A program made the position numbers and the translations under genes. 64,000 bases of DNA from the human T2T-CHM13v2.0 reference genome, Homo sapiens: NCBI RefSeq assembly GCF_009914755.1, contig NC_060928.1. One strand, 5' to 3'. Numbering within the stretch: the stretch's first letter is position 1; the number at the start of each line of letters is the position of its first letter. Of this stretch, positions 21,453 through 61,290 are shown in pieces. The notes beneath the pieces are model-generated. The model did no database searches and had not been told where the DNA came from. It saw only the letters and a list, made by a program, of their open reading frames with translations.

Positions 21453-23399
21453 AGAGCATAACAAGAGTGGGAGGGCTGCTTGCAGGCTAGAAACATAGTA
21501 CAAGGAGGTGGGGCCTCTGAACCAAGGACAAGGACATCACACAATTAAACCCATTGAAGAAGAATTCACCATCTCTGGCATGGGCCTGCACCCTGACTAA
21601 GATACCCTTTCTTTGACAGGACCATGCAGAAAGACATGCAAAGCACACCAGATTGTCTACAGCTTAAGACCAACCTTATAAATCCTTTATCATTAATTAT
21701 ACATTTACAGAAAACATAAACAGTGATCCTTATTATCACTTTTACTGGTATGTGCAGGGAGAGAATCCAAAATCCAGCTGAGTAGTAAGAAATTTTTACC
21801 CTTTTGCTGCCAGCATATTAGGCTTCTGGGTTCCCTTCCCCTTAGTTCAACTTTAAGCCAAACATTTTAAGGTTTGGAGAATTAACTTTTCCCAAGTTGA
21901 AAGTACACAAAGAAAAGATGCAATTTTAAACCACAAGAGAAGGAAAAACACCATAGAAAGGAGTTCTACTAAGGGTTAAGAGGTAATACCTCTCTTCCTG
22001 TTGGGAATGGTGTTTCCCCTATTTCTTTGCCTTCCCTATTTTCTCTTTTCCCTTCTGGCCTACTATAGGAGACATATTGCTTATCTCCAAAATTTTCTTC
22101 TGCTTGCGGAACTGCCTATTTTAGCTAAAATGAGGGTTTGACTTTGCAGCAACATAACCTTCCCTCCATGTGAGATCAAATACCTGAGTTAAATTTTGGA
22201 AAGCTTCCATGTATCTAACAGGTTCATCAAAAGATCAGCCTTAGTTTCTCTTTACTTGCCTAAGGTCCTGCAATGAGAAGGGAACTTTAAGGAGCGCCAA
22301 ATAAGGGAGACCCTTAGATGACTTCCCTGAAAGTTACTTTAATTTTGGGAACTATTTTCCCCGAGCCTGCCCGATATGGCCACAAAAGAAAATAAGCCAC
22401 TTTTTCTTCAGAGTTTCAAGGTTGAAGGAGTCCCAGTGCTTCAACATATACTCCAGGGCATTTGTCAGAGTGGTGAGTATGGGAGCAAGCTCAAAATCTG
22501 TTCTATCATTCCAAGATGCTCTTCACCTCTATATTAAATCAAATAAATCAATGGGCGTCTGTTAGCCTAGTACATATGCTTAGCCTTGGCTGCTGTACTC
22601 AAGTCATGGATGTGAGGCTTGCTGGGGAGAACACGGAGAACCCCCTTTACCCATGGGGTATTGGGAATGTTGGCCATGTTTGAACTAGCTTATTTTCATG
22701 GGGGATCTTGCCATCACGCAAGGCTGGGAAAAGTCCTGAGGCAACTGAGAATTTCTGGCCAGGGCATGCCCAGGTGTGATTCAAAGGTCTCCGGACCGGA
22801 TGTAGCCTCTGACAACCAATTCTGGGTGTTGGCAGAGAACCTCAACTATCCTGGTGCACAACTCTTCTCTCTCTATCTGCAGCCTCTTACTCTTTCTCTG
22901 CATGAAATGTGCAAGATTTTTACAGTCTAGAAGCAGAGTTTTCCCCTTTCCCTCCCGCAGTGAGGTTAGTTGCTACCACTTCTCTGGTAAGCACATTGTG
23001 TTTCTCAGCACAAGGCATGTTTGGATATGTCTGGGCAAGTCTCAGCCAATGCACCAAAATGGTACAGTTCCTATGAGTGGAGAACACCAGGTTCTTCATC
23101 TTGAGTTGAATTAGAAAAAATGACATGGACACACATGGAGTAGTTTTAAGGTGCAGGGAGTTTAATAGGCAAGAAAGAAGGGGTAAGGAAGAAGCTCCCC
23201 TGTACAGAGACAGAGGGAGGAGGCTCCAAAGCTGAGAGACAGAACCCTCAAGAAGTCTTCTATATATGTCACTTCAACTTAAAACTGCAAGTGTGAATAT
23301 TTGGACTTAAAGAACATTTGGTTTGGGTCAGGTCCCCCTTTTACTTAACTGCCTAGTTACTTGCAGAGAGTCCATTTTTGAGACTTTTTTTAATCCCTC

Positions 23400-23960
23400 A
23401 GTAACCTAATCTATAAAATAGCAGCAAGAGAACATATGAGAAAGTACTTTGAATACAATAAGCTGCTTCTCAAAGGTACACATGCTTTTTATAGAATAAC
23501 AGAAAATTACCTGGAGCAGTTTTCTGGCTTTCCTCAATGGGTTGGACATTCTGTTGACCCTGTGGTTAAACAATTAGGTACCAACATGAGACAAGACCCT
23601 ATTACATGCTGGAAGGAAACCACTATAAAAGCCTAAGAACCTGAGCTTTCGTTTCAAAAAGCAAATTCTCCTAAGTCCTCTGTGTAACAGCTCTAGCTTA
23701 CACTTTGGTCTCAAACCACCTTTCTCATACTACAGTATGTGGTAGTCTACATAATTGACACTCTAATGAAATTAGTGGTAAAAGGCACTAAGTTTCTTAT
23801 GGTCAAATTTAAACCACACATGCAGACTCCACAAATACCAGAGGCATGCATGAAAGCTCTGAGTGGGTCAGGTAAAACAAAGGGAAGTAAATGTGTGACA
23901 CATGGTCATGCAGCAATCTTGGTTAATGGCAGTTGAGAGAAAATCAAAGATGCTTCTTCC
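23400..23960 (-). pseudogene. EBLN lineage e, N-terminal half, copy 1 (paralogs ~40220-40760 and ~54210-54780)
   Basis: The minus frame gives HLLPFVLPDPLRAFMHASG versus VFLCLLIPGLHAAFVHGG, then QHVIGSCLMLVPNCLTTGST...SR*FSVIL versus [20 protein letters not shown]...KKRFKTMM. Confidence 0.45.
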
Positions 23961-23999
23961 TTGGCAACCTTATTGAAAATGGGACTGCTTCCTTCCTTC

Positions 24000-24140
24000 A
24001 TCACAAGCCTACTCCATATCCTGCTTTGTTTTCTTCATAATACTCACCTGTCTCTATTTGAATGCAAATTGTGGGAGGCCAGGGACTTACTGTTCAGTGC
24101 TGTATCCTAGGTGCCCAGGATCATGCTTGCCCAGCACTCT
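24000..24140. mobile_element. Ancient L2 3'-end fragment, present in all three units (also ~40790-40940 and ~54800-54950)
   Basis: gaatgcaaattgtgggaggccagggac...gttcagtgctgtatcctaggtgccc resembles the L2 3' terminus. Confidence 0.6.
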
Positions 24141-26058
24141 GTAGAGGTTGTGTATTGTTGGGATGTAGCAGTCAGGCAGTCGGGTGTGTTACCACTAAAA
24201 GTACCACATTTGTCATTGCTTAAAAAAGGGATTTCAGTGCTTTTGATTACTGACCCGGATTCCCTAGAAAGTTGATCCTGAAACTACTTCTGTGCTTCTG
24301 TGTATTGGGGAAAGGGGTAAACGGGACAGCAAGGGTGAGGGGATAAAGTGAGACAGGAAAAGAAGTTAGGTGACTTCAGCTGCTCACAGCTTTACCAGAA
24401 AAAAACACAACTGTTTATCGTGGCAGGCAAAATGAAACACTATTAAAACACTTTGTGAAGGGGGGTAGATCAAATCTTCCATTCTAGTAGTATACAGCTA
24501 AACTTCTTAGACTTGATGCCTTGATGTATATTAAGGCTACTAGATTAATAGAAGCTTATTTCTGAATTGAAACGATAAAATTGGTAATGACATTCTCAGG
24601 TAATCTTGTCTTGACTTTCAACTACACTAACTCTCATTGATTTCCAGTATCCCATGAATTTATGCTAAAAATGATATACTTAAAATGGAAGGGATAAGTT
24701 TGAATAGTACTATAAAAATCCAGGTTGACAATGTTATTTCTCTAGAAATACTACAAGTCACAAGTGTAAACCCTACCATCTTACTTATGCTCTCTGTTCT
24801 GCTTTTGTGCTTCAACTCTGCTTTCCCTGAGTTTATAAAAAGAGGGAAAGCAGAAGAGCTGCTACCAAATGGGATCATATTCTTTTTGATGTAGGACTTC
24901 TCACAGCTTTGGCTCTCGAAGTTATTGAGATGACGTTTGGGGTGTCAGGTGTCTATAAGAATTGACTGCCTGTGAAATGGAGGGGAAGGCAAGATTAGGG
25001 AGAAAAGTCAACTGATATGGGCTGGACCAAGTATTCACTAAGCTGGTGGGGAGTTCAAGAGCTAGTATTCCCCGTTTTCCTGAATCAGGCCATGATGGTT
25101 GGGCCCAAGAAGGAAGAACATTCTGCAGAGGCTTCAGGAAGAAGTTTTAAAGGTGGGAGTAGGTTACCCAAGTCAGAAGGATGTGAAAAGACTGAGAGGC
25201 TAGTATAGATAGAAGCCCTTATTAGATGTGAGTACAGTGGGAAGGCATAGGGTAAATAGTGCCAGGTAAAGTGTGTGTTGTGGGAAGGACTTCACCACCT
25301 AGGATACAGCTGCTGGAAGAAGTGAGGTGCTATGGCTATGAGGGAATGGGGGACTATTTACCCACCAACCTCTTAAATGCCTCCTGTTGTCCAACCCCAC
25401 TGGAAACAAGAGGACAAAGGACCACATGTGATGCAGTTCATAAACAATTGGCACATCTGGGCATAGAGCAGGGCAAAGGAGGATGAAATGTTTATGAAGG
25501 AAGCAAGTAGAGAAAAACATCTGGGTTTCATGTTGGAGAGAGAACCAGTGGTGATAGACTAGAAGAGTCCTAAAGGAATATATAGGGTACAAGTCCGGGA
25601 CGGAAGCAGTTTTTGGGAAGAATGGGTTAAGCTAAAGGGAAAATAGGCCTAGAAGCAGATGAACAGCAGAAAGTGTTCAGGAGCGGGAAGACCTGAGTGT
25701 TGGGGAACAGATGCTGAAGGCTGACACAGAGCAAAGATGCAGAGAGTCAGCTTCTATGTCAATGTTAAATACCTTAGAGGGTGGCTTGAGGGCCACAGTA
25801 GAGGATGTTTTCTAAGTATGGTTTTCACAACCAACACTATATTCATTTTTTCTTATGCATGAAAAAATACATCAGTTTAAAAAAAGTAGGAGGCTTAGCA
25901 TGTCTTTGACTTCCCTGTCAGTACGTCTTAACACATACAACTTCTACTGTAACATAGAAGCATTTTTAGGCCTCTTACACTCCTCCAATTCTTATCTTAA
26001 TGTTGAGGATAAGTGATTAAAGCACAGCAAATTACACAATATGAAGGTATTGCCAGAG

Positions 26059-26490
26059 TGTAGCAGGATAAGTGCAGACAAAATCCCTCAGATACCGGGT
26101 TAAAGAAGGAAGAGGCTTTATTTGGCTGGAAGTATCAGCAGACTTGTGTCTCCAGAACTGAGCTCCTCACCAAGCAGTTCCTGGCCCTTTTTAAGGGCTT
26201 ACAACTCTAAGGGGTCCACGTGAAAGGGATTGAGCAAGCAAGGGGTACGTGACTTGTTGGGGTGGGGGGGGCGGTGAGCAGGATCAATGCTTCTAGGAGA
26301 ATGTTTCTCTATACTATGTCTGAAATCTATAGATAACGCATGTGGTTAGAGCAGAGGTTAATTTTTAACCCCAGGTCTGGCCAGTGGTGCCAGTCAGTCT
26401 TGCCACTGACTTCATCCCTGTTGCTTTTCAGCTTTTACTTCCTCCTCCTCTTGGGAGACAGGAGACAGTAAGAAATGGCTCTTCTCCTCA
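26059..26490 (-). mobile_element. Solo LTR2-family (HERV-E/Harlequin) LTR
   Basis: TG...CA ends. The minus-strand 3' end is ttttgtctgcacttatcctgctaca with an upstream AATAAA. Flanks cagag/caggg. Absent from paralogs. Confidence 0.85.
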
Positions 26491-26891
26491 CAGGGACACA
26501 GCAGAGAAGATAGCAGCTCATTGGCAGTCTCTGCTGCACAAGAGTGCAGTGGAATTTGCTGGTGTACACCCACAGGTTCAGTCTAGGGCACTTTTAATTT
26601 ATGTAGTGGCTTTTCTTTAAAAAAAAAAAACCTCGCTAAATGCACAACAAATATGCAGATGGTGACTTCAGCAAGAAATAAAATCACTACTGAACAGAAT
26701 GACTAATGACAAATTTGAATCTTTAGCTCTTTCAAAGATGCTGGAAAACATTAAGGAACACTAGCTTGCACCTTCTACTAGTCCAGGCAGTTCTTATAGG
26801 ACCCTGTATGCTTTCTCCTTCCTGGGGTTTTAAGGTTTCCAGATACAGTAACATGTAGTTGATAGGCAGACAACTTCCCCTAGATAACTTA

Positions 26892-26943
26892 TTAGGCCAT
26901 TAAAAGTAATGACAAAAAACAACAATTACTTTTGCACCAATCT
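26892..26943. mobile_element. Internally deleted MADE1 (Hsmar1 MITE)
   Basis: ttagg|ccattaaaagtaatgacaaaaaacaacaattacttttgcaccaatct is the central and 3' arm of MADE1; most of the 5' arm is missing. Confidence 0.8.
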
Positions 26944-27699
26944 GGTGTTACACTAAGAACAGTTACCCTGATTATTCTCCATGGTTGTTGATAAACACCA
27001 TTAAACCATTAAATTTATACAGAAAATGCATCTACATATTCCCCAGGTATAAAGAAAGATGGACCAGTAGAAAGAAAAGTACCATTCCAAGCATCTCAGT
27101 GGTAGGAAGATGGATATCTGGTATCTCCTCTCCCTTGACCAGTTGAGGGGGCTGTGTTGGGATCCTCCCTGGTCTCTCTGAATAGATAAAACTATATATA
27201 CTCCATAGTATATATATTCCATAGTAGATGCATAGACTCTAGACAATTGATAACCCCCAGTGGGAACTGTTTCTCCTGAACTCAGGAGGAAGGGCCAACT
27301 TTGTTTTTTTTGTTTTTTTTTTTTTAGACACGTGTTTAGGCTAGATAGGTAAGACAAAGAACTCCCTAGATGAGCCAACACTAGGCAGGAAACCAGACCA
27401 GATGGTAAAATAACTAGTACCCAGGGTGAGAATACCAGAAGAAATTGTGAAAAATTAGAATAAATCATCTCCCATATTAGAGGAGCTGAAATGGGCAGCA
27501 CAATTCAGGGGGCTCCAGGGTGCTTTTGTGCTACCTAGTGTACTGTTCTCAGGACACTTTGAAACTTGCAGTATGTTTGGCTCCTTCAGCTTTGCCTAGG
27601 CATTTAGTGCAGCTTGCATCCAGATGACTATTTTTTGGGTAAAGGCCTGTGTTTAAAAATCACTGGTGTCCAGGGGTTTCCATTTCTTGGTAATGAGGA

Positions 27700-30400
27700 C
27701 CACTGCAGTGTGTTGGGGGTGGGGGTGGCTTTCAGTGTAGATCTGCCAGTCCCTCTTCAGGACACACTGAATCACCTATAACTTAGTGTAAGCCTGAGAG
27801 GAGTCTACACTGTGGAAGCCATAAGGAAGTATAAAGGCCTTGCTAGACAGTATGTAGCATCTAGAACAAAGAGTGGTAAAATTCAAGAGGCAGACAAGTG
27901 AACCAGACCATAAGTCTCTGGGGATGGCAAGTGGTGGGAAGGTAAACATGTGATAGACAAAGTCTAGTTAGTAAAGTCTATTTTACAAGCTCCTTTATTC
28001 TTATGGCTGATTAGAAACTCTCCTGTCATAGAGGTGGGGATTTGTTCCTTCTCCTTTGGATCCCAGTGCTGAACCATCTCGTGAGTTATTCTGCCTGAAT
28101 TGAGAATCTCATTGTTGAGTGAATGTTGATTGACCTGATCTTTCCTGATGCTTTTTGTATGCATCCTTCAGTCATGTTTCTAGAATATCACCTGGTATTG
28201 GATTCCCCTATCTGTGATTCAGCATGGTTGAGCTGGTCTCTACATGATAAAATGCTGCAGAAGCAAGATGTAGGAATGCTATTTAATTTTGAAGCATCCA
28301 GATGTCGAGTTACTTTGGCATAAGGAAACCATTCAGATCCTACAGTCTTCAAGAGACTCTCATGCATTTCTAAACTTAAGTATTTCATCAGTTACTTCAG
28401 GGATAAGAATTTGCATGGCGTCAGTCTCTAAGGAAGTTCTTAATTGTGACCAGTGTTGTCACTTGTGTTTCACTTGCAACAAGATAATTTTGGACTATGA
28501 ATGGTTGCCCAACATCTGTCCTTAGTCGAGAGTATTCTGATCAGGGTTCTATGGCACCAGTTATACACTGCTATCTTAGACATATGTGTAGCCACATCAA
28601 GATGTGGGTAATTAATATACATATCACTGATTTCTGCAGCAGACTTGAGTGGATTGAACCAGTCCTCAGAAGCTGAGTTGTCTCTTGAATCACAAAAGAG
28701 CAATGAAAATACTAATTGCAGGATGGTAAAGACCAAGTCGGTGAGTTGAATCATCAGTGACTGCAATTCTGCAGGACTCAGTTCCATAGCCTGTAGGGAG
28801 CCAAGTAACAGTGCCATCAGGTTTACTCATGAATTGGCACAGGAAAATGCTTCCAAAATGAGGGTATGACACTGCATACCATATTTATGTACATAGTCAG
28901 TGGTGAAAGCTGTCTCCTCAGATTGTTATATGGGATCAACAATTGCAGGCACATGCCCCTCTGTAGCAGGGGGAGTGGCATGAACAATTTGTAATGATTG
29001 GTAAACAGTTCAAGTACAATTGACCCTGCCACTTTCTCTGTAGCACAAATGATCAGCTTCTGAGCTCTTGACTATGTGAGCTTTCCTTGTATCTGCTTTA
29101 TTGCCTTCCACTCACAATCATGTACTTTAGCTGAAGGACTTTCTGGGGTGGCATACTGTGGTCTTCTACATTGTGTTCAAACCAGGTTGCTTTTCCTTCC
29201 CTTTCATCTTCATTTCTCTTAGCAAATTCAGGGCATAACATAATCTTCTAGGTTTGGGAGTGGGAAAGGGCAGGCTGGTAACAGGAAGGGAAAAGCCCTT
29301 CTCCAGGGAGTGTTGGGCACCCAAGTCAACCTGCATGGAACTATAGGTGAACCCAACCCTTTGTGTCTGTAGTGAAGTTTCCCACAAACTATACACCAAC
29401 ACTTGAGCCAGAAACTTGCAGCAAAAAGCCTTGAATATGTGAAGGAATAAAATGAGCCTTTATAGTTTTGGCGTCAATGAGTCTTGCAGCAATTATTGCC
29501 TGTGGTGCCAACATGGCCTCCCAGCTCTTCAAGTATCAGTCTCTTCCTCTCTTGCTCACCAGACTTTTTTGAAGCCTTGCTGTCCTGGTCGTGGGCAGTC
29601 ATATATGACTAGAGCTGGCCCCTCATGGTGTTGCAGGAATATCCTTGATGCTTTTACCTTGTTCTTCACTCATGTTTGTTCTGGGTAAGCATACTTCTGG
29701 AGTCTCATAAACAAGTTGTCTATTGGTCAGACAAAATTGTTGGTGCCAATTCTGCAAAGTATCCTGGTGCATCTTGGCAACCCACCTTATTAATTGGAGG
29801 CAAAATATTTGGCAAAGGAAGGACTAGTATGTTACAACCCGGTTTTGGGCAAGGTTGGAGTTGGTCATTTATGTGAGGAATACAAATTTTATAATTTCTA
29901 AGCTGCATCACTTTGAAATCTGCAGTTGAAACACTTGGTTTTGTTTTCTCTAGTTTCTCTTTATATGGATGCAATGTGAAAATCACTTTTCTCAGTTCTC
30001 GATGCTATTGTAATTTGAGTCTGACACGTTTGGGGAAAAAACAGAAGTCAGCAATGTTTGGTAGAAGCTTAAATGAAATGGCAATAGCATGCAAACTGGA
30101 GAATTTACCAAAAGGTCAAGGTTAATAACATGAACACTTGTAGGAGACTTAGAGTTACTGAGATCCCAGTAAGTCTGGACTCAATGAGCCTCCAATCAAA
30201 TGTGAATTCTGGCCTCATTGGTCAGTATGGCTTTCTCTGGACACTTCAGTTTTGGGTGCTCATTGAGCTGCTTCTTGAGGCATCAATGAGAGCCATGGGT
30301 AGAGGGCTACACCCACGACATGAGTTCACTTGGATCAAGAGAAAGATACTCCTTGTAGTGGAACATAAGACCAGAAATAGGAACACAAAGTAACAGGCCC
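27700..30400 (-). pseudogene. EBLG lineage 1, copy 1 (decayed bornavirus-like glycoprotein; split by the EBLN insert at 27985-29070)
   Basis: Ordered motifs versus BoDV G: NILPP...ELAPTILSDQ ~ QTFPP...ELESGKAMLSDG; SKRGRD ~ furin site KRRRRD; IQGFLLQVSG ~ LQSLLLGVFG; SCYQP ~ TYYPP; ATWF ~ VMWF. Confidence 0.7.
27985..29070 (-). pseudogene. Endogenous bornavirus-like nucleoprotein (EBLN lineage h), near full length, single copy
   Basis: Colinear motifs: VCSVIPSFWKHF ~ LCLLIPGLHAAF; ELSPAELQS ~ DLTELEISS; WFNP ~ MFNP; TQVTTLVTIKNFL ~ AQMTTYTTIKEYL; ILIPEVTDEILKF ~ LTIPVVAYEIRDF; WFPYAKVTRHLDASKL ~ LFPFLGAIRHPDAIKL; FLHLASAAFY ~ FPNLASAAFY. Absent from the paralog at ~59650. Confidence 0.9.
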
Positions 30401-30700
30401 AGAGCAAATGGGAAGTGGTAACTTGATAAATGTTGAAATAGTTGGTTCGGAAGGGTAGTGGGGACTATCTTCTGGAATATGATTAATAAACCTCAGAACA
30501 CATCAATATGGAATAAAGTTAATACCCATAGTGCTAGAGTAATGCAGGAATGGGCCTAGTTAACTTCCTGACTTGGATGGTTCTCTCCCTGTAGACTTGA
30601 ATGTCTACATGGGTATACATGCTTGCATTTATGGCTGAATCTATTACAGTGCTTCAGTTTTAATGGAAACTAAACTCCTCTACTGCCAGCATATGTCATC
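30300..30700 (-). pseudogene. EBLM (bornavirus-like matrix) directly upstream of EBLG-1, copy 1
   Basis: LVSIKTEAL ~ YVELKDKVI; LGPFL ~ NIPFL; LFHIDV ~ YFTIDV; LIIFQ ~ NIYFQ. The paralog gives VFQDLSSYYLPFAL ~ VYKDPIRKYMFLRL. Confidence 0.6.
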
Positions 30701-30709
30701 TTACATGCA

Positions 30710-31320
30710 GCTGGCAAGTTGGGATTAGGTGTTGATAAGTTCCAGGGATGGGGAGGAAATCCTGTGAAGTAAATGCCTCCAGATAGTGGAACTATTTGAG
30801 GCTCTTCAGGTACATTGCAAGGTAGCTATTCCTGTGAGTTTGGCTGGCTTTTCTAGAATTGAAGGGACTTGTTGTAGTCAACTTGATACCAAGTGTTGTG
30901 TTGGTCTCCTTATCAGAGTTCTATATTTGGATTCAATGTTTGTCTCTGAAAGGCTGTGGAAGCAGCAGTAGCTAGATTGCCCTAGAAACTAGTATTTTGA
31001 TGCTGTTGGGCAACTGTGTAGCTTCCATCTCTGCCACCATGGCCTGTGTTCACTTGGTGGCTTACTGATTAAAAACTAGCAGAGCTATTCCATCTGGGTC
31101 ATCCAGTGAGTCTTCTTTAGTTGCTTTGCAGTGGGTCATAATACGTGACATGAAACCTCCATGTCTCTGCATGTACTTCTCATAGACTTCCTTTTCTTTG
31201 GCTATGTAGTCAGTTTCTATTCAGTGTACTGACCAGAAACAAGACCACTGGCCTCAGATCAGGGTATGTTCTCATCTTAGGCCTCATGTCATCCCTGTTA
31301 AAGTAGATTCATAATGAGCT
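30710..31320 (-). mobile_element. Old ERVL-type (ERV3-16A3/HERV16-like) internal fragment; a longer paralog with an LTR16-like LTR lies at ~61330-62930
   Basis: Degenerate ERVL pol/integrase-like sequence (e.g. ctgttgggcaactgtgtagcttccatctctgccaccatggcc). Confidence 0.5.
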
Positions 31321-31329
31321 AGCTTGAGC

Positions 31330-32500
31330 TGTCATTTATTTTCCCTAAAGGTGGGGCCTTGGGAGATGTATTTTTCTTGGTGCTCTAAGCATAGCCAAGA
31401 AGCTCTGGAGTGTTGGAAATAGTGTTCTCAGTTAGCATTTAGAGCATAAGTTGGTCTCTTACTAATCCACAAACATCTTGGTTTTGCTGACAGAGGCTTA
31501 TAAATTCTCAAATGATATCATATTCAGGAACATATCTGCTTTTGGTGTCTTGGCCCTTCTGATAAAGGGGTGATAATGAGGACGCTTATGAAGTACACTG
31601 ATTCTCATCTACTACAAATGTTGAAAGTAGGCTGGCTCTGGTATTCCTGGTTGCGGTCAGTAATGCCTAGGCTTGTTTGCAAAGCCATAAGCTAAGAGTT
31701 AATGAGGAAATAATGAGGTCACTATTGTTGGGCTGTGGGTGGTGGAAAAATGGATGTCTTGCTTAGGTGGTATTCCCTGACTTCAAGCCCTCTTCCTTTT
31801 GTACTAAGTGAAACTTGCTGTCATTATTCCTGTCTGTAGAATGGGATTGAAATCTGTAGTGACTTAGACCTCTGATTCTTTTACAAGACTTTCTGTACTG
31901 AGAGAACATGAAGAACCATCTTCCCAGTTTCCCAGGAAGGCAGAGTTCCCAGGCTAAAAAGAGCTCTACAGAAGGTGTGCCTGAACACAGTTGGGCTTGG
32001 AGGATGTACAAAAGTCCTGCACTCTAAGCCCCTGTCTGAGTGTGCCAACCTGTATCCAAACTGCTACATCACATGATTCCCAGAATATAGGCTGGTGTGA
32101 TTGCTAGTGATGGAGGGTGCTGGTCTACCAAATACAGCGGTCACCTGGATGTTCCCAGGGGAGTGGCCAGAGGGCCATGTCTGGTGTTGCAGGTTCTGGA
32201 CAATAGCATACAGCACAACTGTACATTTTATATTTTCGTTCAACTGGTCAACTGTTACATTGTAGGTCAAGCTAGAACATAAGTATTACAGAGACTTGGC
32301 CTCAGTAAAGCTTGCTTGCGACTGATCACTGTCTTTTTGGGGATCAATCAGGGACTGCTTTATTATTTACAAGGTGTCACCCAACTGGTCTGACTCCCAA
32401 GCATTGGAACCAAGAATAATTCCAACTGGTAGGAAGAGTCAAAGCCTGGGATTCCAGGTGAAGGAAAACTTGTACTGAAATGTTAACTTGTACTTCTGTA
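31330..32500 (-). pseudogene. EBLN lineage c, copy 1 (paralogs ~44940-45600 partial, and ~62950-64000)
   Basis: SLFPH ~ MFNPH; LWLCKQA*ALLT ~ DWINGQPW..SLLT; VPEYDII*EFISL ~ IPVVAYEIRDFLEV; LRTLFPTLQS ~ PRSFPNLAS. Confidence 0.55.
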
Positions 32501-53199: not shown

Positions 53200-54190
53200 G
53201 GAAGTTTATGAACACAGAATGAGAACTCACTCTACGTTTTTCTTCACCAGCTTTCCTGGAACTCTTAATTTGTACATATCCCTTATATCTTTGAATGTAC
53301 ATCCTGTTGATGAATTACTGAAAAAAGGCTCAGGCATGCATTTTCCTAGCAAACCCCCTTTTTTTTTAGGAAACTCTCTGGTTCAAGACTCTATGGTTAT
53401 GCTTAACTTACCACGTTAAGACCAAATGAAAACATTTTTTAGTATATCATAGATATTTTCTCTCACTACACACAGAACTACCTGTGATAGTTTGGATTCT
53501 CTCAAGGCAGAGCCTGAGCCTAGAGGTTGATTAAGTTTCTCATGGTGGAATCTTTGTGGTTGGTGTTAGTGTGCGATACAAAATGATAAGTCCTGTCACT
53601 CATTTGTCTACATGAATATCTAGCCTGTTGGCTATAGCTCACATGTTTGTACAAAAATACTTGGTATAACTGGAGGTTTTCCCTTCTTGCATTAGCACTG
53701 TCACATGAGTACAGCCCACTGGGTCAGTGACTTCTATAGGAGTCAATCTTGGTTGCACCTGCCCAGATTAAAACCTTTAGTTAATCAGGTGCTCTATTTA
53801 AACAAACTCGCTCACATGTCTTTGAAGTTAAGGACTTGTTTGGGCATCTTCCTGAAGTCCAAAAGACTTACACTGCCAGCTTTGCAATCCTATCATATAC
53901 ACACAAATAGGTTACAGCTTGGGTAAGCAATTATCCAAATAAGGTAACATAATACAAATGATGTGTTTGGAGTTTATAGAAATCTTGGAGTTTCTTTATG
54001 TAAGAATAGTATTGCTATTATAAACTAATGCTATAGGAAGTAACAAATCTTCTATACTGGTCACACCAGTTTAAAACCACAGATGTGAATATTTGGACTT
54101 AGACTGTAAATGAGTTCCAGTTCCACTTCTAGTTAACTGCCCTGTTGCTTTCAGGGGGTTGGTTTCTTTGAACCTGTGTTTTGATCTGTC
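53200..54190 (+). pseudogene. EBLN lineage a, copy 3 (uninterrupted)
   Basis: Paralog carrying the empty sites for the Alu and ERV. SFPGTLNLY and LG*AIIQIR. Confidence 0.5.
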
Positions 54191-55759
54191 AGGCATCCAA
54201 TCTCATCTTCAAGATAGGAGCAAGAGGATGGTAGGACAAAGCACTTGGAATATGATCAAGTGTATCTTCTTTGCAAAAGTCCATATGCTTTTGAAGGAAG
54301 AATGCCAGAGAAGCTTTACTTTCGTGGATCAAAACGTGCTGGCTTCCCTCAACTCATGGGTTAGTCTCTTGGCCCTGTATATGTAGAAAACAATCTCAAA
54401 GTGAGACAGGGCCTCATTACATACTGGAAAGATGCTACTATGATAGCCTAGGAACCTAACTTTTTGTCTCAGGATCTGGGAGAATTTGCTCTTTGACTGT
54501 TTAATGGCTCTAAAACATTAGCGTCCAGTCACACACACTGATGTGTATTCTACGTAACTGCCATTCTGTACTGAAACTAGTGGTATGAGACTTTTTTAAT
54601 ATGAAGTATAACCCACACATGCAGACTACAATGTCAGATGTGTGCACAAAAGCTTGAGTGTTCTAACTAAAACAAGGTGAAATGGAAGTAAATGTGAGAG
54701 TTGATTGTGTAATGACCTTAGTTATTGGCAGATGAGAGTGCATCAAAGATGTGCCAGTGTATTCACTGGCAATGTTATTGAAAACAGTACTGCTTCCTTC
54801 ATCACAAACCCACTCCATATCCTGCTTTGTTTCCTTCACAGTACTACTCCCTACCTGACTGTCTCAGCATATGAATGCAAACTGCAGAAGGGTAGAAACT
54901 TGCTATTTACTGCAGTAGCCTCTGGCCCTAGGATACTTGCCTAACACTGCATGGATATAATTGTCAGCCAGTCAATTGCATGGAATTTTGCTGAAAGTAC
55001 AACTTTTGTCATTGCTTAGGAGAAGAACTTTGGTGCTTTTGATATTACTTACTTGGGATTCTTAGAAAGTAGATCCTGAGAAAACTTGGGCGTATTAGTT
55101 TATTGTGGGGAGAAGTATCCAACCCCAGAACAGCAAGACTGAGGGGATAAAAAGCAGAAGCAGCAAGAAAGTTAGGTGACTTCAGCCACTCATTGCTGTA
55201 CTAGAAAACACGCAGCTGCTAGCCTTATACAAAACAAAAACATAATATTTTGTGAAAGGGGGTGTGTTTAGAACTTCCTGTTGTATTTATGGACTGCTGA
55301 ACTTTATACTTGTATACTTTCACATATATTAAAGCTGCTTGTTTCATCAGGTCAAAGAAACACTACTTAAAAACAATTGGAGGAGAACATGGCAGTGTGG
55401 ACTGCTGAATGTCTTTGCAGTTGAACTTTCAGGTACATGCTAAGGTCACTAGATTCGTAGGAACTTATTTCTGATACTAAACGTCAATAATGACTTTCAG
55501 GTAATCTTGATTTTGTAATTATGTTATATTGCTAGTGTCTATGCTATCTTTTTACTCTAAAAGTGACACACTTAAGGGATTAGAAGTTTCAATAGCATCT
55601 AAATTCCAGCCCAGCAATGTTTTTCTAACTAGAAATCACAAGTGTCAACCTACTGTCTCTCTGCTTTATTCTGCTTTTATGCCTCAACTCTGCTCATCCT
55701 GAGTCACAAAGAGGGAACTCAGAAGCACTGCTACCAAACTGGGTGTGTTCTTTGATCAG

Positions 55760-56480
55760 ATGGGGGCGCTCTCACAGCTTAGGCTCCATGAAGTCCTTGC
55801 TGAGATGGAGTTTGTCTAAGGAATGGCTGCCTGTGAAGGGAGGGGAAGAAGGCAGGATTAGGCAGAGATGAGGTCAACTGTGACATAGTCCCAAGAGAGC
55901 CTTCACTACCCTGATAGAGTTCCAGAGCTAGTATTGCGCCTCACTATCCTACATGGAGCCATGATGGTCAGGCCTCTGCAGGCCACCTTGCTTACACATC
56001 AGATGCAGGCTGCCCTGGGAGGGGGGATCTCGGGCAAAGCAGCTCTCTGCAGCTGAGACTGAGTCTCAAACAGCTGTGGCCTGGGGGTTGCTTGAGTACT
56101 CCTACAGTGAGAAGCAAGCCCTTCCTTGGAGGACGGTGTGGGTGGAACGCCTGCATGGCTACCACAGTGGCTCTGCTTCCAGAGTATGATGGCTCCCTGT
56201 GGCCAATCTAAGGGATGGGGAAGCCACATAAACTACCTGCCAGCGTCCTTGTCCTTCTTTTCCTGTGTGCATCAAACCCCCTGCACTTCGAGGTGTTTGC
56301 TTGTCCCCTCCAAGCAGCTGCTGGAAAAGCCGGCTCTCATTCCTAACGGTGTTGGTGATCTGCCCGAGTCCCAGTGGTAAAGGAGGCATAGCCTCTGAGA
56401 TGAGATGATGGTGGGGGCCGGAGCTCTTCATTAGGCAAGCAGTCAAGAATGATAGGGACTTACTATTTCCTGCAACACCC
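55760..56480 (-). mobile_element. LTR16-like LTR plus ERVL internal remnant (partial paralogs ~24900-25100 and ~41680-41740)
   Basis: gggaggggaagaaggcaggattaggcagag...agctctctgcagctgag...catggctaccaca resembles LTR16. Confidence 0.55.
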
Positions 56481-57429
56481 TCTGGGCCTAGGCAGGGCTA
56501 GTAGAGCTGAGCTAATTTGAGAAGCATGGCGATTTTGTCTGTATTTCCAAAGCCTAACTTTTACTTGTAAAGCTTATAGGCCCAAGTCAAGGTAATATAA
56601 CTAAAATTATGGGTATTATTCTAGGCTACTTCTCTCCCCATAAAAACATTTAGCGTAGTCTAACAAACCTACTCATAATTTTACTTCTGGTTAACTATTA
56701 GAGGCATAGTTAATGATATTGGCTTAACATTAAAAAACAAGGTAACTTAATGCTTATATTCCATCTCTAAAAATGTCACTGATATTTTGATTGCAATAAA
56801 GTCTAATGACTTAATTAGAATAAGCAGTAAGAAAAGTAAGGCAGTCTCAGAGCAGGGATCTCTGAGGACCAGTGCTACCCCTTGAAGTTACAAATTACAT
56901 AATGGGATTATCTGGAAGATTATTTTATTTCCAAATGATTATCTTGATATACTGTGAAACTCAAAGTTGGCTGCAGGAATTGATCCACATCTCCAGTTGG
57001 GTCACATTTCAATGAATGTTGTGATTGTTCACTAGTGAACAAATCTCAGGACAGAAAACGGAAAAATTATTTCTCCCCTAAAGAGGCCTTTTAACATACT
57101 ACTGTTTTTCAGAGACATTAATGGCATCTCCTCATTCTCTTCCAGCTGTTTAGGCATATTGTGTATTACTTTTTGATAACTCAATACAGCAATTAAATAG
57201 AGTCACTTATTCTGTTAACAGACTTCATGAGGATGATCAGAGCCCCAGAAGGAGGGAGGTATATTCTGCAGAGACTTAAGGAGAACTCTGCAGAAGTGGG
57301 AGTAGGTTACTCTAACTCAATGATTTTAAACACTGAGGGACTGGTGCAGGTGGAAGCTTTTACTCTCATAGACCTGAAAGTACAGTAAAAAGGCATAGGG
57401 TAAACAGCCAGGTGTAAAAGGGTTGTTGT

Positions 57430-57670
57430 GGGAGGGGATTCACCACAGGAGCCGTGGTCCTAAAAGGATGCAGATTTTAGAGCTGTGGGAATGGGAGACT
57501 GATCTCTCACTAACCCCCTTGTTCCCTCTTGTTGTCTAATCCCACTGGAAGCAGGACGGCAAAGGAATACATGTGATACAGTTTGTAGAAGACTGGCATG
57601 ACCAGGCACAGAGCAGCAGGGCAAAGGAGCATGGAAAAAGTTCATGCAGGAAGCAAGTATAGAAAAACAG
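57430..57670. mobile_element. LTR33-like remnant (paralog ~25280-25520)
   Basis: Degenerate match to the ancient ERVL LTR33 pattern (ggcacagagcag...). Confidence 0.4.
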
Positions 57671-57779
57671 TCGGAGTGTTTCATGTTGGAGAGACGGAAT
57701 CAGTAGTGATTGACCAAGAGGGTTCTAAAGGAATGCTTAGGGTATACAGGCATGGATGGAGGCAGTTTTGATTAGGAGC

Positions 57780-58800
57780 AAGAGGAACTAACTGGGGGGA
57801 AGAGATGCTGAAGGGCTAAAGCAGAGCAAAGATCCTGAGAAGCCAGAGTCAGCTCTTGGGTCAAAGGCAAACTTGCAGAGTGGATTGAGGGCTGGGCCAC
57901 AGTCGGGGAGGAAGATGGCATGTTTGCTAAGGATGTGCTTTAAACACCACTATGTTCACATTATTCTCTTAAGCGAAGACATAGGTCATTGGAAGGAATA
58001 AGTGGGAAGCTTGGTGTGTCTTCTATGCTTTCCCTGTCATTGGGACTTGATGCATACAACTCTTCGTGAACATAGAAGCGTTTGTAGACCTCTTGGGCTC
58101 ATGTAAATCATATCCTCATGTAGGGATGAGTGATAAAACACAATAAATTACACAATGTGAGCATGAGATATGGGGCCTTGCAGGGACACAGCCAAGAAGA
58201 CTTGCAGCTCAGGGGCATCTTCTACTGCACATAAGTGCAGCTCATTGTGCTGGTGTGCACCCACAGGCTCACTTTACTGCATTTTTAATTTGTATGGTGG
58301 CTTTTGGTTAGAGGAATTCTGCAAGTCATACAACAAACATGCAGAGGGTGACCTCAGATAGTAAGAAGTATCACTATTAAATGGTTTGTAACAAATTTGA
58401 GTTTGTAACAAATTTGCTCTTCCAGCTGGGAAACTTTAAGGAACCCTAGTTTACAATGCTTGATATACTAGTTCAGGCTGTTCTCATAGAACCCTGTTTG
58501 CGTTATCCTTCTTGTGACTTAGTCTGCATGCTACGCCTGTGGAATTCATAGGCTGATGATTTGAGATAATTTAGCTCTGGTGTTAAACCAGGTTTAGAAC
58601 CTAGTTACCTGATCTTTTGTGTTTTTCATATACACTAAATTTACATAAGCAGAATATGTATGGATATCTTTTCAGGTCTCACAGAAGATATACCAGTGCA
58701 GAGAAAAATGACTGAATTCCAAGCCCCTCACTGATGGGAAGATAGATATTTGGCATCTTCTCTACCCTGACCAGTTTGGTGGCTGTGTGTTGGGATCCTT
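57780..58800 (+). pseudogene. EBLN lineage b, copy 4
   Basis: Colinear with copies 1-3 (cagggacacagc, ctgcac..gtgcag, gcagagggtgacctca). Confidence 0.55.
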
Positions 58801-59289
58801 TCTGGCCTCCCTGAATGTATAAAGCCAGCTCTTGGACTCTATCTAGACCACTGGTAAACCCACAGAGGGCAAGGCTTTTCCTGAATTCAGGAGGTAGAAC
58901 CAACTTTGGCTTTCAAGACATTTGTCTGCTTGGACTGGACAGGTGAAAGACACAAAAATTCCCTCAGTGAGGAGCCAGCACTAGGCAGGAAACAAGGAAA
59001 AGAGGATAAAATACGTATCTAGGATGACAAAACACTGGAAGAAATGACTAGAAGTTAGAATGAAGCATGTCACATGTGAGACAAGCCAGCAATGGGCAGA
59101 AAACTACTTCAGGGGAATCTAGGTTAGTTTCTCGATACCTAGCATATTGTTCTCAGGAATATCTTTAACCTTCTAGTTGGTTCAATTGCCTCAGTTTCCT
59201 TTTATCCTTGAAAGCTTGTATCCAGATGACTATATGCTTTGGTTTAAGGTCTCTGTTTATGATAACTGGTGACCAGAGGGCTCCCCAGG

Positions 59290-59324
<35 letters not shown>

Positions 59325-59399
59325 ACAAAGACCATTGTAATGCATGTCAGAGGGGCAGTCAGTGTAGATCTGCCAGTCCTTCTTCAGATTCATTGCTGA

Positions 59400-61290
59400 A
59401 TTCCCTGGACACATTGCTTCATGACACATTGCTGGGTTACTTGTAACTCAAAAACATAAGCATGAGGGAGTCGAAGCTGTGGGAGGCATAAAGTACAGAG
59501 AGGCCTTGCTGGATGATGAGTGGTCTCTGACACAAAGAGTAGTACAGTTAGAGAAGTGGAAAGACAATGGAACAGGACCCTGAGTCTCCAGGGATGGCAA
59601 GTTGTGGGAGAGTAAACACATGGTAGATAAAGCCTAGTAAGTAAAGCTGGATACGTTGTTTTAAGGAATGAACTCTCTCTTATCTGCTGCTTCATTGCCT
59701 TCTGTTCACAGTCATGTACTTCAGCTTATAGATTTTCTGGGGTGGCATATTATAGTCTCCCATGGTGTGTTAAAACTATGTTTCTTTTCCTTCCCCCATT
59801 GTCTTTGATCTCTTCATCTTTATCCTCTTAGCACATTCAAGGCATAGCATATTCTAGGTCTGGGGATGGGAAAGTGCAGGTTGGTAACAGAAGTTCTCCT
59901 GAGACTGACATGCATGAAACTAGGTAAACCCAATCCTTTATGTCTGTGGAAAGGGGTTTGCTGTGGACCATACACCATCACCTGATCTAGAAAGTTGCAT
60001 CAAGAAGTCTTCTTAAGAAGGAATGAAATGTGAATCTATAGCCTTAGTGTGACTAGGTCTTGCAGTCATTCTTGCATGTGGTGCCAACATGACGTCCCGA
60101 GCTGATATTGTAACCTCAAATCTATTAGTCCCTTCCCCTACTCATCTTTTTTGAAGCCTTGCTGTTTTGTTCACTGCCAATCAAATAAGACTACAATTTG
60201 GCCCCCTGTGTTTCAGGAGTACCCTTCATACCTCCACCATGAGCCTCACACATAGTTTTGCTTTCTGTAAGCAGAGGCACAAGTCTCTGACAAACCTGTT
60301 TTCTGTCCATTGGTCATCAGAGTAAATTGTTGGCACCAGTTCTGCAAAATGTTGTACCTCATCTTTTCACTTTATTGGTGGGGGGCAAAACATTTGGCAA
60401 GTGGGGATTGGTATTTTATGACTTGGTTTTGGACAAACTTTGATTTACTCATTTGAGGAAGATAAACTTTGTCTAGGCTTCTTTAGCTTAACATCTGCAG
60501 TTGAAGAAACACTAGGTTCTGTTTTCTCAGGTTCCTCTTTGACTAGAACCAATGTGAAAATCCAATTTTCCTTGAAATTCTTGCTGCTGTGGTTGAGTCT
60601 GACATTCAGAAAAAAACAAGTCAGTTAACAATGTTTGGTAGAAGCTTTAAATGAAATGGCAGCAGCATGCACACTGGAGGATTAGCTGAGTGGCATCATG
60701 ATAAAGAACATATTTTGACAGTTATGTGGGTCCCAGTCAGTCTGAATTCAACAATCCTTTAATCAAAACACATGAATCCTGCACTCTGGTCAGTCTGGGT
60801 TCCTCTGGCCGCTTTTGTTCTGGATGTTCATTGATGAGGTGCTCTGTGAGGCATAAATGGAAGCCATAAGTAGAGAGCCTCACCAAGGAAAGTCATGACT
60901 TCACTTGAGTCAAGGGTAGAAAGATACTGCTCATAGTAGAACATAAGAACAGAACTGGGATCCAAAATAATTGGCCCAGAGCAAATGGGAGGTAGTAACT
61001 TGACAAATCTTGAAATACTAGGATTGGAAGAGGGTAAGGATTATTGTTTGGAAGAAAGAATTCGTATACCTCAGATATCACATCGATGTGGAGTACAGTT
61101 ACTATCCATCATGTTAGGGTAATAGAGGAATGGGCCTAGTCATCTCCCTGACTTAGATGGTCTCCCTTTGAATGGAGTAGCCTTCGGAGTGTCTAAGGGA
61201 TATTCAAGCTTGCTTTCACGCCTGAATTTAGTGTATCCGTTTTAATTAAAATGAAACATCTTGACTGCTAGCTTTTGTCCTCTTATATGC
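59400..61290 (-). pseudogene. EBLM-EBLG lineage 1, copy 2 (no EBLN insert)
   Basis: Colinear with 27700-30700 without the 1.1 kb insert. LHIDV and VFQDLSSYYLPFAL (ORF 60893-61081). Confidence 0.6.

What the first reader, a model, noticed from the sequence alone, without database searches (positions are those of the whole stretch)
27985..29070. Younger EBLN inserted inside an older EBLG, in one unit only
The best-preserved EBLN (FLHLASAAFY, RHLDASKL, TTLVTIKNFL) interrupts EBLG-1 in unit 1, while the paralog at ~59640-59680 is empty. It has a minus-strand AATAAA near its 3' end (~27994-27999). The locus therefore appears to have acquired new viral sequence after the duplication, which is the strongest evidence for recurrent loading.
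Basis: partly seen in the sequence, partly recalled or inferred. Interest (0 to 1): 0.85.

Follow-up and report, generated by a model that had tools for sequence, protein, structure and literature searches.

The report
Carbovirus-like bornavirus N fossil, chr4
This stretch of human chromosome 4 is a broken, ancient DNA copy of a bornavirus nucleoprotein message that landed next to a DPPA2-like pseudogene after an old duplication, a known kind of viral fossil and not one nested inside a viral glycoprotein fossil.

Summary
Window 27977-29092 is about 1.1 kb of extra DNA in one copy of an ancient segmental duplication. The paralog has only 40 nt there (59647-59686). On the minus strand, 29005-28072 is a near-full-length, broken bornavirus nucleoprotein (N) copy. 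It aligns to Southwest carpet python virus N residues 27-333 of 370, with 137 of 295 identical, 9 frameshifts and 2 stops. The score is 459, against a maximum of 51 in 202 other window segments. Pfam, PDB and a genome-wide PF06407 search all missed it, because it is carbovirus-like rather than Borna-disease-virus-like.

The "EBLG host" reading is not supported. No G homology appeared with Pfam BDV_G or carbovirus G. The flank is a DPPA2-like pseudogene with a DCR domain at 29222-29401.

Insertion after the duplication is well supported, because the extra segment matches a whole N mRNA and the empty site carries TTTTAA. No target-site duplication could be shown, and the age is undetermined.

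A second, independently integrated carbovirus-like EBLN lies about 106 kb away on the same strand.

This is a known kind of element. Carbovirus-like EBLNs in humans are already in print.

The parts
27977..29092 (-). Extra segment present in unit A and absent from paralog B. It is the whole EBLN insert. The left junction is ambiguous within 27977-27999 and the right junction within 29077-29092.
   Evidence: Self-blastn break points; three-way alignment of A, B and D.
28072..29005 (-). N-homologous core of the carbovirus-like EBLN. It matches P0054 residues 33-348 (28979-28072), P0043 residues 15-316 (29005-28124) and SWCPV N residues 27-333. It carries 9 frameshift steps (about 7 events) and 2-3 in-frame stops.
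   Evidence: tblastn; the genome search HSPs at 28109-28279, 28527-28709 and 28678-28869.
27994..28008 (-). It may be a decayed poly(A) tail or termination signal.
Evidence: A-rich window scan.
29209..29995 (-). DPPA2-like pseudogene (RefSeq LOC100421142) lying immediately 5' of the EBLN on the same strand. Its DCR domain is at 29222-29401.
   Evidence: Hub annotation; Pfam PF14047 at E 3.2e-8 and 34 bits against a cut-off of 27; genome search at E 2.1e-6.
27007..27976 (.). Left flank of unit A, paralogous to 58633-59646 (70% identity over aligned bases, K2P 0.39).
29093..30758 (.). Right flank of unit A, paralogous to 59687-61340 (74% identity, K2P 0.33).
59647..59686 (.). Empty site in paralog B. 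The 40 nt between the two flank alignments contain TTTTAA at 59659-59664, the consensus L1 endonuclease target (the consensus is recalled).

Best explanation
Window 27977-29092, minus strand, is an endogenous bornavirus-like nucleoprotein element (EBLN). It is a reverse-transcribed, germline-integrated copy of a complete N mRNA from an extinct carbovirus-like bornavirus, and is now a dead pseudogene. It integrated into one copy (unit A, about 23250-32342) of an already duplicated DPPA2-like pseudogene unit, about 120-130 nt 3' of the DPPA2-like pseudogene and in the same orientation. The integration site carries TTTTAA in the uninterrupted paralog (unit B, about 54042-63988). Shown here: N homology, the carbovirus-like lineage, presence in A and absence in B, and the DPPA2-like nature of the host. 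Inferred: integration by the LINE-1 machinery at the T/A-rich 3' end of the older retrocopy, integration after the A/B duplication, and no present function.
For: N homology. The frameshift-aware alignment scores 476 to P0054 (143 identities in 316 columns) and 393 to P0043. It scores 459 to SWCPV N, with 137 of 295 identical. The 202 other window segments give mean 35-36, sd 4.5-4.6 and maximum 51-52. tblastn with SWCPV N returns 5 collinear HSPs with summed E 9.5e-30. A whole-genome search with P0054 returns three HSPs here, E 1.6e-7 to 7e-3. P0054 and P0043 themselves match Pfam BDV_P40 at E 2e-22 and 2e-31. P0054 is 57-59% identical to the N proteins of the two carpet python carboviruses.

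Lineage. In the ML tree the element sits in a 12-row clade with SWCPV, JCPV and the Hirundo EBLN (SH-aLRT 99). It is separate from the hsEBLN1 clade (100). The score to hsEBLN1 is only 62.

Insertion. The flanks on both sides align to unit B for kilobases, with a 40-nt gap at the site. The extra segment spans roughly the N 5' UTR to an A-rich 3' end, which is one whole mRNA. TTTTAA lies at 59659-59664 in the empty site. A and B are closer to each other (K2P 0.33-0.39) than either is to a third copy D (0.48-0.51), and D has no EBLN.

Host. A DCR domain lies at 29222-29401, and RefSeq annotates a DPPA2 pseudogene at 29209-29995.
Against: Standard tools miss it. A Pfam scan of each minus-strand frame found no BDV_P40 match at E <= 1. 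PDB phmmer on one of the three minus-strand frames found nothing at E <= 10. The genome-wide PF06407 search listed 23 matches, none on chr4.

No target-site duplication is demonstrable. The best direct repeat is 10 of 12, and 42 of 300 shuffles reach that score. There is no clean poly(A) tail, only a 60% A remnant. LINE-1 mediation is therefore inferred.

Copy D gives no information about the left side of the site. Its 190 nt there are not significantly similar to A or B (27 and 169 of 500 shuffles reach the score). Copy C cannot be aligned across the site.

No orthologous genomes could be examined, so presence or absence in other mammals is untested.

The age indicators disagree. About 7 frameshift events suggest an age near that of the duplication, while 2-3 stops suggest a younger age.
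Confidence: 0.88

Rival explanations
1. One reading: a younger EBLN nested inside an older endogenous bornavirus-like glycoprotein element (EBLG), in a locus that repeatedly captures viral sequence.
For: The EBLN is real and unit-specific. The best frameshift-aware match to carbovirus G anywhere in the window falls at the paralogous empty site (59676-59566, score 49). A second EBLN lies about 106 kb away.
Against: That G score of 49 is the maximum of 210 segments with mean 37.8 and sd 3.8, which is what chance gives. Units A and B align to different, unrelated parts of G. tblastn with SWCPV G over 214 kb has a best E of 0.38. Pfam BDV_G gives no match at E <= 0.1 in 12 frame translations of the flanks. 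The genome-wide PF06208 search gives 6 matches, all on chr1 or chr9. The flank carries a Dppa2/4 DCR domain instead. Cultervirus G was not tested.
Confidence: 0.03
2. The EBLN was present in the ancestral unit before the duplication and was later deleted from unit B.
For: Only two units can be aligned across the site, so parsimony alone does not decide. The indel count in the EBLN (about 11 per kb) is similar to that of the A lineage since the A/B split (about 12 per kb), so the EBLN is not clearly younger.
Against: The deletion would have had to remove exactly one whole N mRNA copy and leave flanks that abut within 40 nt at a TTTTAA motif.
Confidence: 0.06
3. The window EBLN and the EBLN at chr4:80583248-80583895 are two copies of one integration, spread by the segmental duplications of this region.
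For: They lie on the same strand, about 106 kb apart, inside the same array of old duplicates. Both show a +1 frameshift at SWCPV N residue 280.
Against: Their codon-aligned identity is 64% at positions 1+2 but 37% at position 3, so they diverged under coding constraint, that is, as viruses. The same pipeline gives 76% against 71% for the chr12/chr3 pair. They are not each other's nearest relatives: 45% amino-acid identity to each other against 50-53% between the window element and four other human loci. Their flanks are not homologous and lie in a different order within the unit. chr12 also has a frameshift at residue 279, so that site may simply be indel-prone.
Confidence: 0.05

Closest known systems
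Carbovirus-like EBLNs of primates, including human (Hyndman et al. 2018, PMC5834213; Kawasaki et al., bioRxiv 10.1101/2020.12.02.408005, the carboviral 'clade 1' and 'clade 2')
   Same: It is a degraded N-derived insertion that groups with carpet python carbovirus N rather than with Borna disease virus N. It is one of about 11 such human loci found here.
   Different: I could not establish whether this particular locus is in those catalogues, because their locus tables were not readable here. Which of Kawasaki's two clades it belongs to is unresolved. Its clade is sister to bat-like sequences (P0087 from Phyllostomus).
Classical human EBLNs hsEBLN-1 to -7 (orthobornavirus-like; Parrish et al. 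2015, PMC4574747, passages read)
   Same: It has the same origin in principle: N mRNA copied into the germline, with poly(A) tracts and TSDs reported for those loci.
   Different: It belongs to a different viral genus-level lineage. Its score to hsEBLN1 is 62, against 459 to SWCPV N. Pfam BDV_P40 does not detect it. No open reading frame is kept. The TSD and poly(A) tail are not recognisable.
LINE-1-mediated processed pseudogenes nested at the 3' end of older retrocopies
   Same: It is an intronless, single-mRNA-sized insert in the same orientation as the neighbouring DPPA2-like pseudogene, at a site that reads TTTTAA in the empty paralog.
   Different: The hallmarks (TSD, poly(A) tail) are too decayed to test. 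That the DPPA2-like copy ends at this point is inferred only from copy D's homology stopping at 29078.

Membership tests
EBLN (endogenous bornavirus-like nucleoprotein element) | Significant sequence homology to a Bornaviridae N protein | tested here: met
   Scores are 459 to SWCPV N and 476 to P0054, against a maximum of 51-52 in 202 control segments. tblastn summed E is 9.5e-30. Genome-search HSP E is 1.6e-7.
EBLN (endogenous bornavirus-like nucleoprotein element) | Direct match to Pfam PF06407 (BDV_P40) above the gathering score | tested here: not met
   No match at E <= 1 in any of the three minus-strand frames. The locus is not among the 23 genome-wide matches. The link is transitive only: its close relatives P0054 and P0043 match at E 2e-22 and 2e-31. 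The model is centred on orthobornaviruses and the frames here are broken 9 times.
EBLN (endogenous bornavirus-like nucleoprotein element) | Lies in host chromosomal DNA with host flanks, not in a viral contig | tested here: met
   Both flanks are paralogous host sequence, and an empty paralogous site exists.
EBLN (endogenous bornavirus-like nucleoprotein element) | mRNA-retrocopy hallmarks: single-gene length, poly(A) tail, target-site duplication | tested here: inconclusive
   The length fits one N mRNA (about 1.1 kb; N residues about 15-348 are covered). The 3' end has only a 60% A remnant. The best direct repeat is 10 of 12, reached by 42 of 300 shuffles.
EBLN (endogenous bornavirus-like nucleoprotein element) | Orthologous copies in related host species (germline fixation, age) | not testable with these tools
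   No other mammalian genome is held. The last protein search returned a bat paralog-like ORF, not an ortholog.
Carbovirus-like lineage of Bornaviridae | Groups with Southwest and Jungle carpet python virus N to the exclusion of orthobornavirus-like N | tested here: met
   The 12-row clade has SH-aLRT 99 and the 17-row carbovirus-like clade has 99. The hsEBLN1 clade is separate at 100 (quick IQ-TREE with LG+G4; 31 rows, chosen by hand from the 88 proteins fetched plus 11 of 15 human loci).
EBLG (endogenous bornavirus-like glycoprotein element) as the interrupted host | Homology of the flanks to a bornaviral G protein | tested here: not met
   Pfam BDV_G: no match in 12 flank translations at E <= 0.1. 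Genome-wide PF06208: none on chr4. SWCPV G by tblastn: best E 0.38 in 214 kb. Frameshift-aware scores are at noise level and inconsistent between paralogs. Cultervirus G was not tested.
DPPA2/DPPA4-like pseudogene (host unit) | Dppa2/4 conserved region (DCR, PF14047) | tested here: met
   At 29222-29401 on the minus strand: E 3.2e-8 and 34 bits against a cut-off of 27; E 2.1e-6 and 39.3 bits. RefSeq annotates LOC100421142 there. Unit B gave no DCR match at E <= 0.01.
piRNA-cluster EVE trap (as proposed for EBLNs by Parrish et al. 2015) | Small RNAs of piRNA type mapping to the locus, antisense to N | not testable with these tools
   No small-RNA data are available here. The paper's three human EBLNs in clusters are hsEBLN-2, -3 and -6, and it has no mention of chr4 (passages).

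The most novel reading that the evidence does not exclude
The ancient DPPA2-pseudogene duplication array on 4q21 (about chr4:80.58-80.75 Mb in T2T-CHM13) may be a preferred landing or retention zone for bornaviral N transcripts. Two carbovirus-like N mRNAs that had already diverged as viruses were captured independently, about 106 kb apart and on the same strand. With 11 strong carbovirus-like loci in 3.1 Gb, a pair that close is expected about 0.004 times by chance. This is my own rough, post hoc arithmetic. It rises to about 0.02 if I assume about 25 N-like loci of all lineages; that number is an assumed figure, not counted in any call. If the region is a germline-transcribed piRNA-type cluster, it would be a carbovirus-directed counterpart of the EBLN-piRNA loci described for orthobornavirus-like EBLNs.
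Probability: 0.12. Interest if true: 0.6.

Novelty: already known. Interest (0 to 1): 0.25.

Why it matters
It adds little new biology. The element is a standard viral fossil, of a lineage (carbovirus-like EBLN) already reported in human and other primate genomes.

Three points are useful:

- **Annotation gap.** RefSeq does not annotate this locus. Pfam BDV_P40, a PDB sequence search of one of its three minus-strand frames and a profile-based genome scan all miss it. Carbovirus-like EBLNs need carbovirus queries and frameshift-tolerant alignment.
- **Relative dating.** The empty paralogous site gives a rare within-genome "before and after" view of an EVE insertion. It orders the insertion against an old segmental duplication.
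- **A testable hint.** Two independent N captures within about 106 kb are a weak sign of a capture-prone region.

Tried and rejected
- **Pfam on single frames, PDB phmmer on one of the three minus-strand frames, genome-wide PF06407.** All missed the element. I did not take this as evidence against N homology once carbovirus-like queries were used.
- **Profile of primate EBLN1/2 (A1) run by hmmsearch on stop-to-stop pieces.** It gave only two weak collinear hits (E about 1 and 34), so it was too narrow.
- **tblastn with hsEBLN1.** One hit at E 1.0 in the insert.
- **Whole-genome DNA search with the insert.** Machine error, not repeated. Whether the insert DNA has other near copies was therefore answered only at protein level.
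- **Target-site duplication search.** Not significant.
- **Copy D as a third 'empty site'.** Its left side is not homologous, so I rejected it as evidence. Copy C cannot be aligned across the site.
- **Dating from lesion counts.** Frameshifts and stops disagree, so I give no date.
- **Mapping my two human groups onto Kawasaki's clades 1 and 2 through the bat relative.** Suggestive of clade 2, but it conflicts with the near-neutral 25% divergence of the chr12/chr3 pair. Left open.
- **Locus catalogues.** The PNAS version of Kawasaki et al. (PMC8157955) and Kojima et al. (PMC7865133) are not held. In the Hyndman supplement I saw only a file name, Homo_sapiens_AC107625.doc. The supplements of PMC10288550 and PMC11521997 held no human loci.
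- **Text searches.** 'EBLN' with 'chromosome 4' (2 irrelevant papers) and 'DPPA2' with 'bornavirus' (1 irrelevant paper) found nothing on this locus.
Full report
**What is at the coordinates**

The window is human chr4:80662001-80726000 (T2T-CHM13). Self-comparison shows that about 23250-32342 (unit A) is an old paralog of about 54042-63988 (unit B), at 63-70% identity in blastn. The alignment stops at 27976<->59646 and resumes at 29093<->59687. Unit A therefore holds about 1.1 kb that unit B lacks, and B has only 40 nt there.

TTTATT lies at + strand 27994-27999, which reads AATAAA on the minus strand.

**Is it N?**

Routine tools say no:
- The three minus-strand frames, with stops read as X, gave no Pfam BDV_P40 match at E <= 1.
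- PDB phmmer, run on one of the three minus-strand frames, found nothing at E <= 10.
- A six-frame genome-wide search with PF06407 listed 23 matches, including the classical hsEBLN loci, but none on chr4.
- A profile of primate EBLN1/2 gave only two weak collinear hits.

I then wrote a protein-to-DNA local aligner that allows frameshifts. With it, hsEBLN1 scored 62 and a Miniopterus EBLN scored 68. In 102 other 1171-nt window segments the mean was 34-35, the sd about 4 and the maximum 50 and 47.

A full HMMER search of 1.84 billion representatives with the EBLN1/2 profile returned 72 N-like proteins. I scored the fetched proteins of at least 90 residues against the insert. Five of them matched it very strongly:
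- P0054: score 476, residues 33-348 of 356, window 28979-28072, 143 identities in 316 columns, 9 frameshifts and 3 stops.
- P0043: score 393, residues 15-316, window 29005-28124.
- P0063, P0062 and P0065: also strong.

All five match Pfam BDV_P40 on their own, with E from 2e-16 to 2e-31. P0054 is an ORF in the barn swallow genome and is 57-59% identical to the N proteins of Southwest and Jungle carpet python viruses, which are carboviruses.

Against SWCPV N itself the insert scores 459 over residues 27-333 of 370, with 137 of 295 identical, 9 frameshift steps and 2 stops. Across the window, 202 control segments outside the insert have mean 36.1, sd 4.5 and maximum 51. Plain tblastn with SWCPV N finds five collinear HSPs with summed E 9.5e-30 in a 214-kb database. 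A whole-genome search with P0054 recovers the locus.

The N homology is therefore real and covers nearly the whole protein.

**Lineage**

I built an ML tree of 31 rows:
- 11 human loci, read with X at every break.
- 20 fetched proteins, chosen by hand.
- 4 weak human loci were left out.

The window element sits in a 9-row clade (SH-aLRT 99) with six other human loci and two bat-like sequences. A close relative of those two, P0087, comes from Phyllostomus discolor. This clade is sister to SWCPV, JCPV and the swallow ORF (99). All of it is separate from the hsEBLN1 clade (100).

Carbovirus-like EBLNs in primates, humans included, are already in print:
- Hyndman et al. 2018, PMC5834213. I read the abstract and passages.
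- Kawasaki et al., bioRxiv 10.1101/2020.12.02.408005. I read section 10 and passages. They describe a carboviral clade 1 endogenized in Boreoeutherian ancestors and a clade 2 in Simiiformes and Catarrhini ancestors.

**Is the host an EBLG?**

No evidence supports that:
- Genome-wide PF06208 (BDV_G) gave 6 matches, all on chr1 or chr9.
- Twelve frame translations of the flanks (25000-27980 and 29080-32400) gave no BDV_G match at E <= 0.1.
- SWCPV G (a 526-residue open frame from L042) had a best tblastn E of 0.38 in 214 kb, and SWCPV L had no hit below E 1.
- Frameshift-aware G scores over 210 window segments have mean 37.8, sd 3.8 and maximum 49. The maximum does fall at the empty site of unit B. 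However, it is within what the largest of 210 values should be, and units A and B align to different parts of G.

What the flank does contain is a Dppa2/4 conserved region at 29222-29401 on the minus strand. It scores E 3.2e-8 and 34 bits against a cut-off of 27, and E 2.1e-6 in the genome search. This agrees with RefSeq's DPPA2 pseudogene at 29209-29995.

The EBLN therefore lies about 120-130 nt 3' of a DPPA2-like pseudogene, in the same orientation.

**Insertion or deletion?**

The evidence favours insertion:
- The extra segment runs from about where an N 5' UTR should start to an A-rich 3' remnant at 27994-28008. Extrapolating residue 15 at 29005 back to residue 1 gives about 29047, and the right junction is at 29077-29092. 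The segment is thus one whole N mRNA. A deletion in B would have had to excise exactly that.
- The empty site in B reads TTTTAA at 59659-59664. This is the L1 endonuclease consensus as I recall it.
- A third copy, D (window -9927..-9160, RefSeq LOC100421141), is more distant: K2P 0.48-0.51 to A and B, against 0.33-0.39 between A and B. D has no N sequence.

Two limits apply. D's homology starts exactly at A 29078, and the 190 nt to its left are not significantly similar to A or B, so D does not count as a second empty site. No target-site duplication can be shown: the best direct repeat is 10 of 12 (27988-27999 against 29091-29102), which 42 of 300 shuffles reach.

My reading is that integration followed the A/B duplication. 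I infer that it was L1-mediated and took place at the T/A-rich 3' end of the older DPPA2-like copy.

**Age**

The age is undetermined. The A/B distance is K2P 0.33-0.39, or 0.17-0.20 per lineage, with about 23 gap events per kb of alignment. The EBLN has about 7 frameshift events in 0.92 kb. By that internal indel clock it is nearly as old as the duplication. Only 2-3 stops in about 300 codons point to a younger age. I give no date.

**Recurrent loading?**

Within 214 kb (chr4:80572001-80786000) there is exactly one other bornavirus-like match. It is an EBLN at chr4:80583248-80583895 (window about -78753..-78005), on the minus strand.

It is not a duplicate of the window element:
- Codon-anchored identity is 64.3% at positions 1+2 but 36.6% at position 3, so the two diverged as coding viral genes. 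The same pipeline gives 76.2% against 71.2% for the chr12/chr3 pair.
- They are not nearest relatives.
- Their flanks are not homologous.

Both do show a +1 frameshift at residue 280, but so does the chr12 locus at residue 279.

Two independent captures about 106 kb apart among roughly 11 strong carbovirus-like loci genome-wide would be expected about 0.004 times by chance. This is my own rough, post hoc estimate. It is a hint of a capture-prone region, not a demonstration. No G, L, M, P or X sequence accompanies them.

**Verdict**

This is a genuine but ordinary viral fossil: a carbovirus-like EBLN inserted next to a DPPA2-like pseudogene after an ancient duplication. The EBLG nesting is not supported.

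The kind is known. Whether this exact locus is already catalogued could not be checked, because the relevant locus tables were not readable here. Full-text searches for 'EBLN' with 'chromosome 4' and 'DPPA2' with 'bornavirus' found nothing about it.

Noticed in passing
outside the window: chr4:80583248-80583995 (window about -78753..-78005), minus strand; locus L021: A second carbovirus-like EBLN. It matches SWCPV N residues 36-311 with 112 of 262 identical, 8 frameshifts and 1 stop. tblastn summed E is 6.4e-22. It is an independent integration, judged by codon-position asymmetry.
   Followed up: partly
L015/L020 (chr12:51.47 Mb) and L017/L018/L024 (chr3:44.15 Mb): These two human carbovirus-like EBLNs are 74.5% identical at the nucleotide level, with almost no codon-position asymmetry (76% against 71%). 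They may stem from one integration copied within the genome, or from near-identical viruses followed by long neutral decay.
   Followed up: no
human genome: About 11 human loci are clearly carbovirus-like N (frameshift-aware score of 190 or more to SWCPV N). They fall into two groups: chr4 twice, chr12, chr14 twice, chr3:44 Mb and chr8, against chr3:10 Mb, chr10, chr19 and chr16. The Pfam PF06407 genome scan scores most of them weakly or not at all.
   Followed up: partly
window -85000..+88000 (chr4:80.577-80.750 Mb): The whole neighbourhood is an array of very old segmental duplicates at 63-77% identity that includes several DPPA2-like pseudogene copies. Examples are 23250-32342 against 54042-63988, about 82895-86747, about -9927..-8350, and -77912..-74001 against -49354..-46418.
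   Followed up: partly
window -9927 (copy D) against window 29078: The homology of the DPPA2-like copy D to units A and B ends at exactly the position where the EBLN sits in A. This suggests that the point is the 3' end of the ancestral DPPA2-like retrocopy.
   Followed up: partly
window 59676-59566, minus strand: The best, though chance-level, match to carbovirus G in the whole window falls on the empty site of unit B (score 49; tblastn E 6.2).
   Followed up: yes
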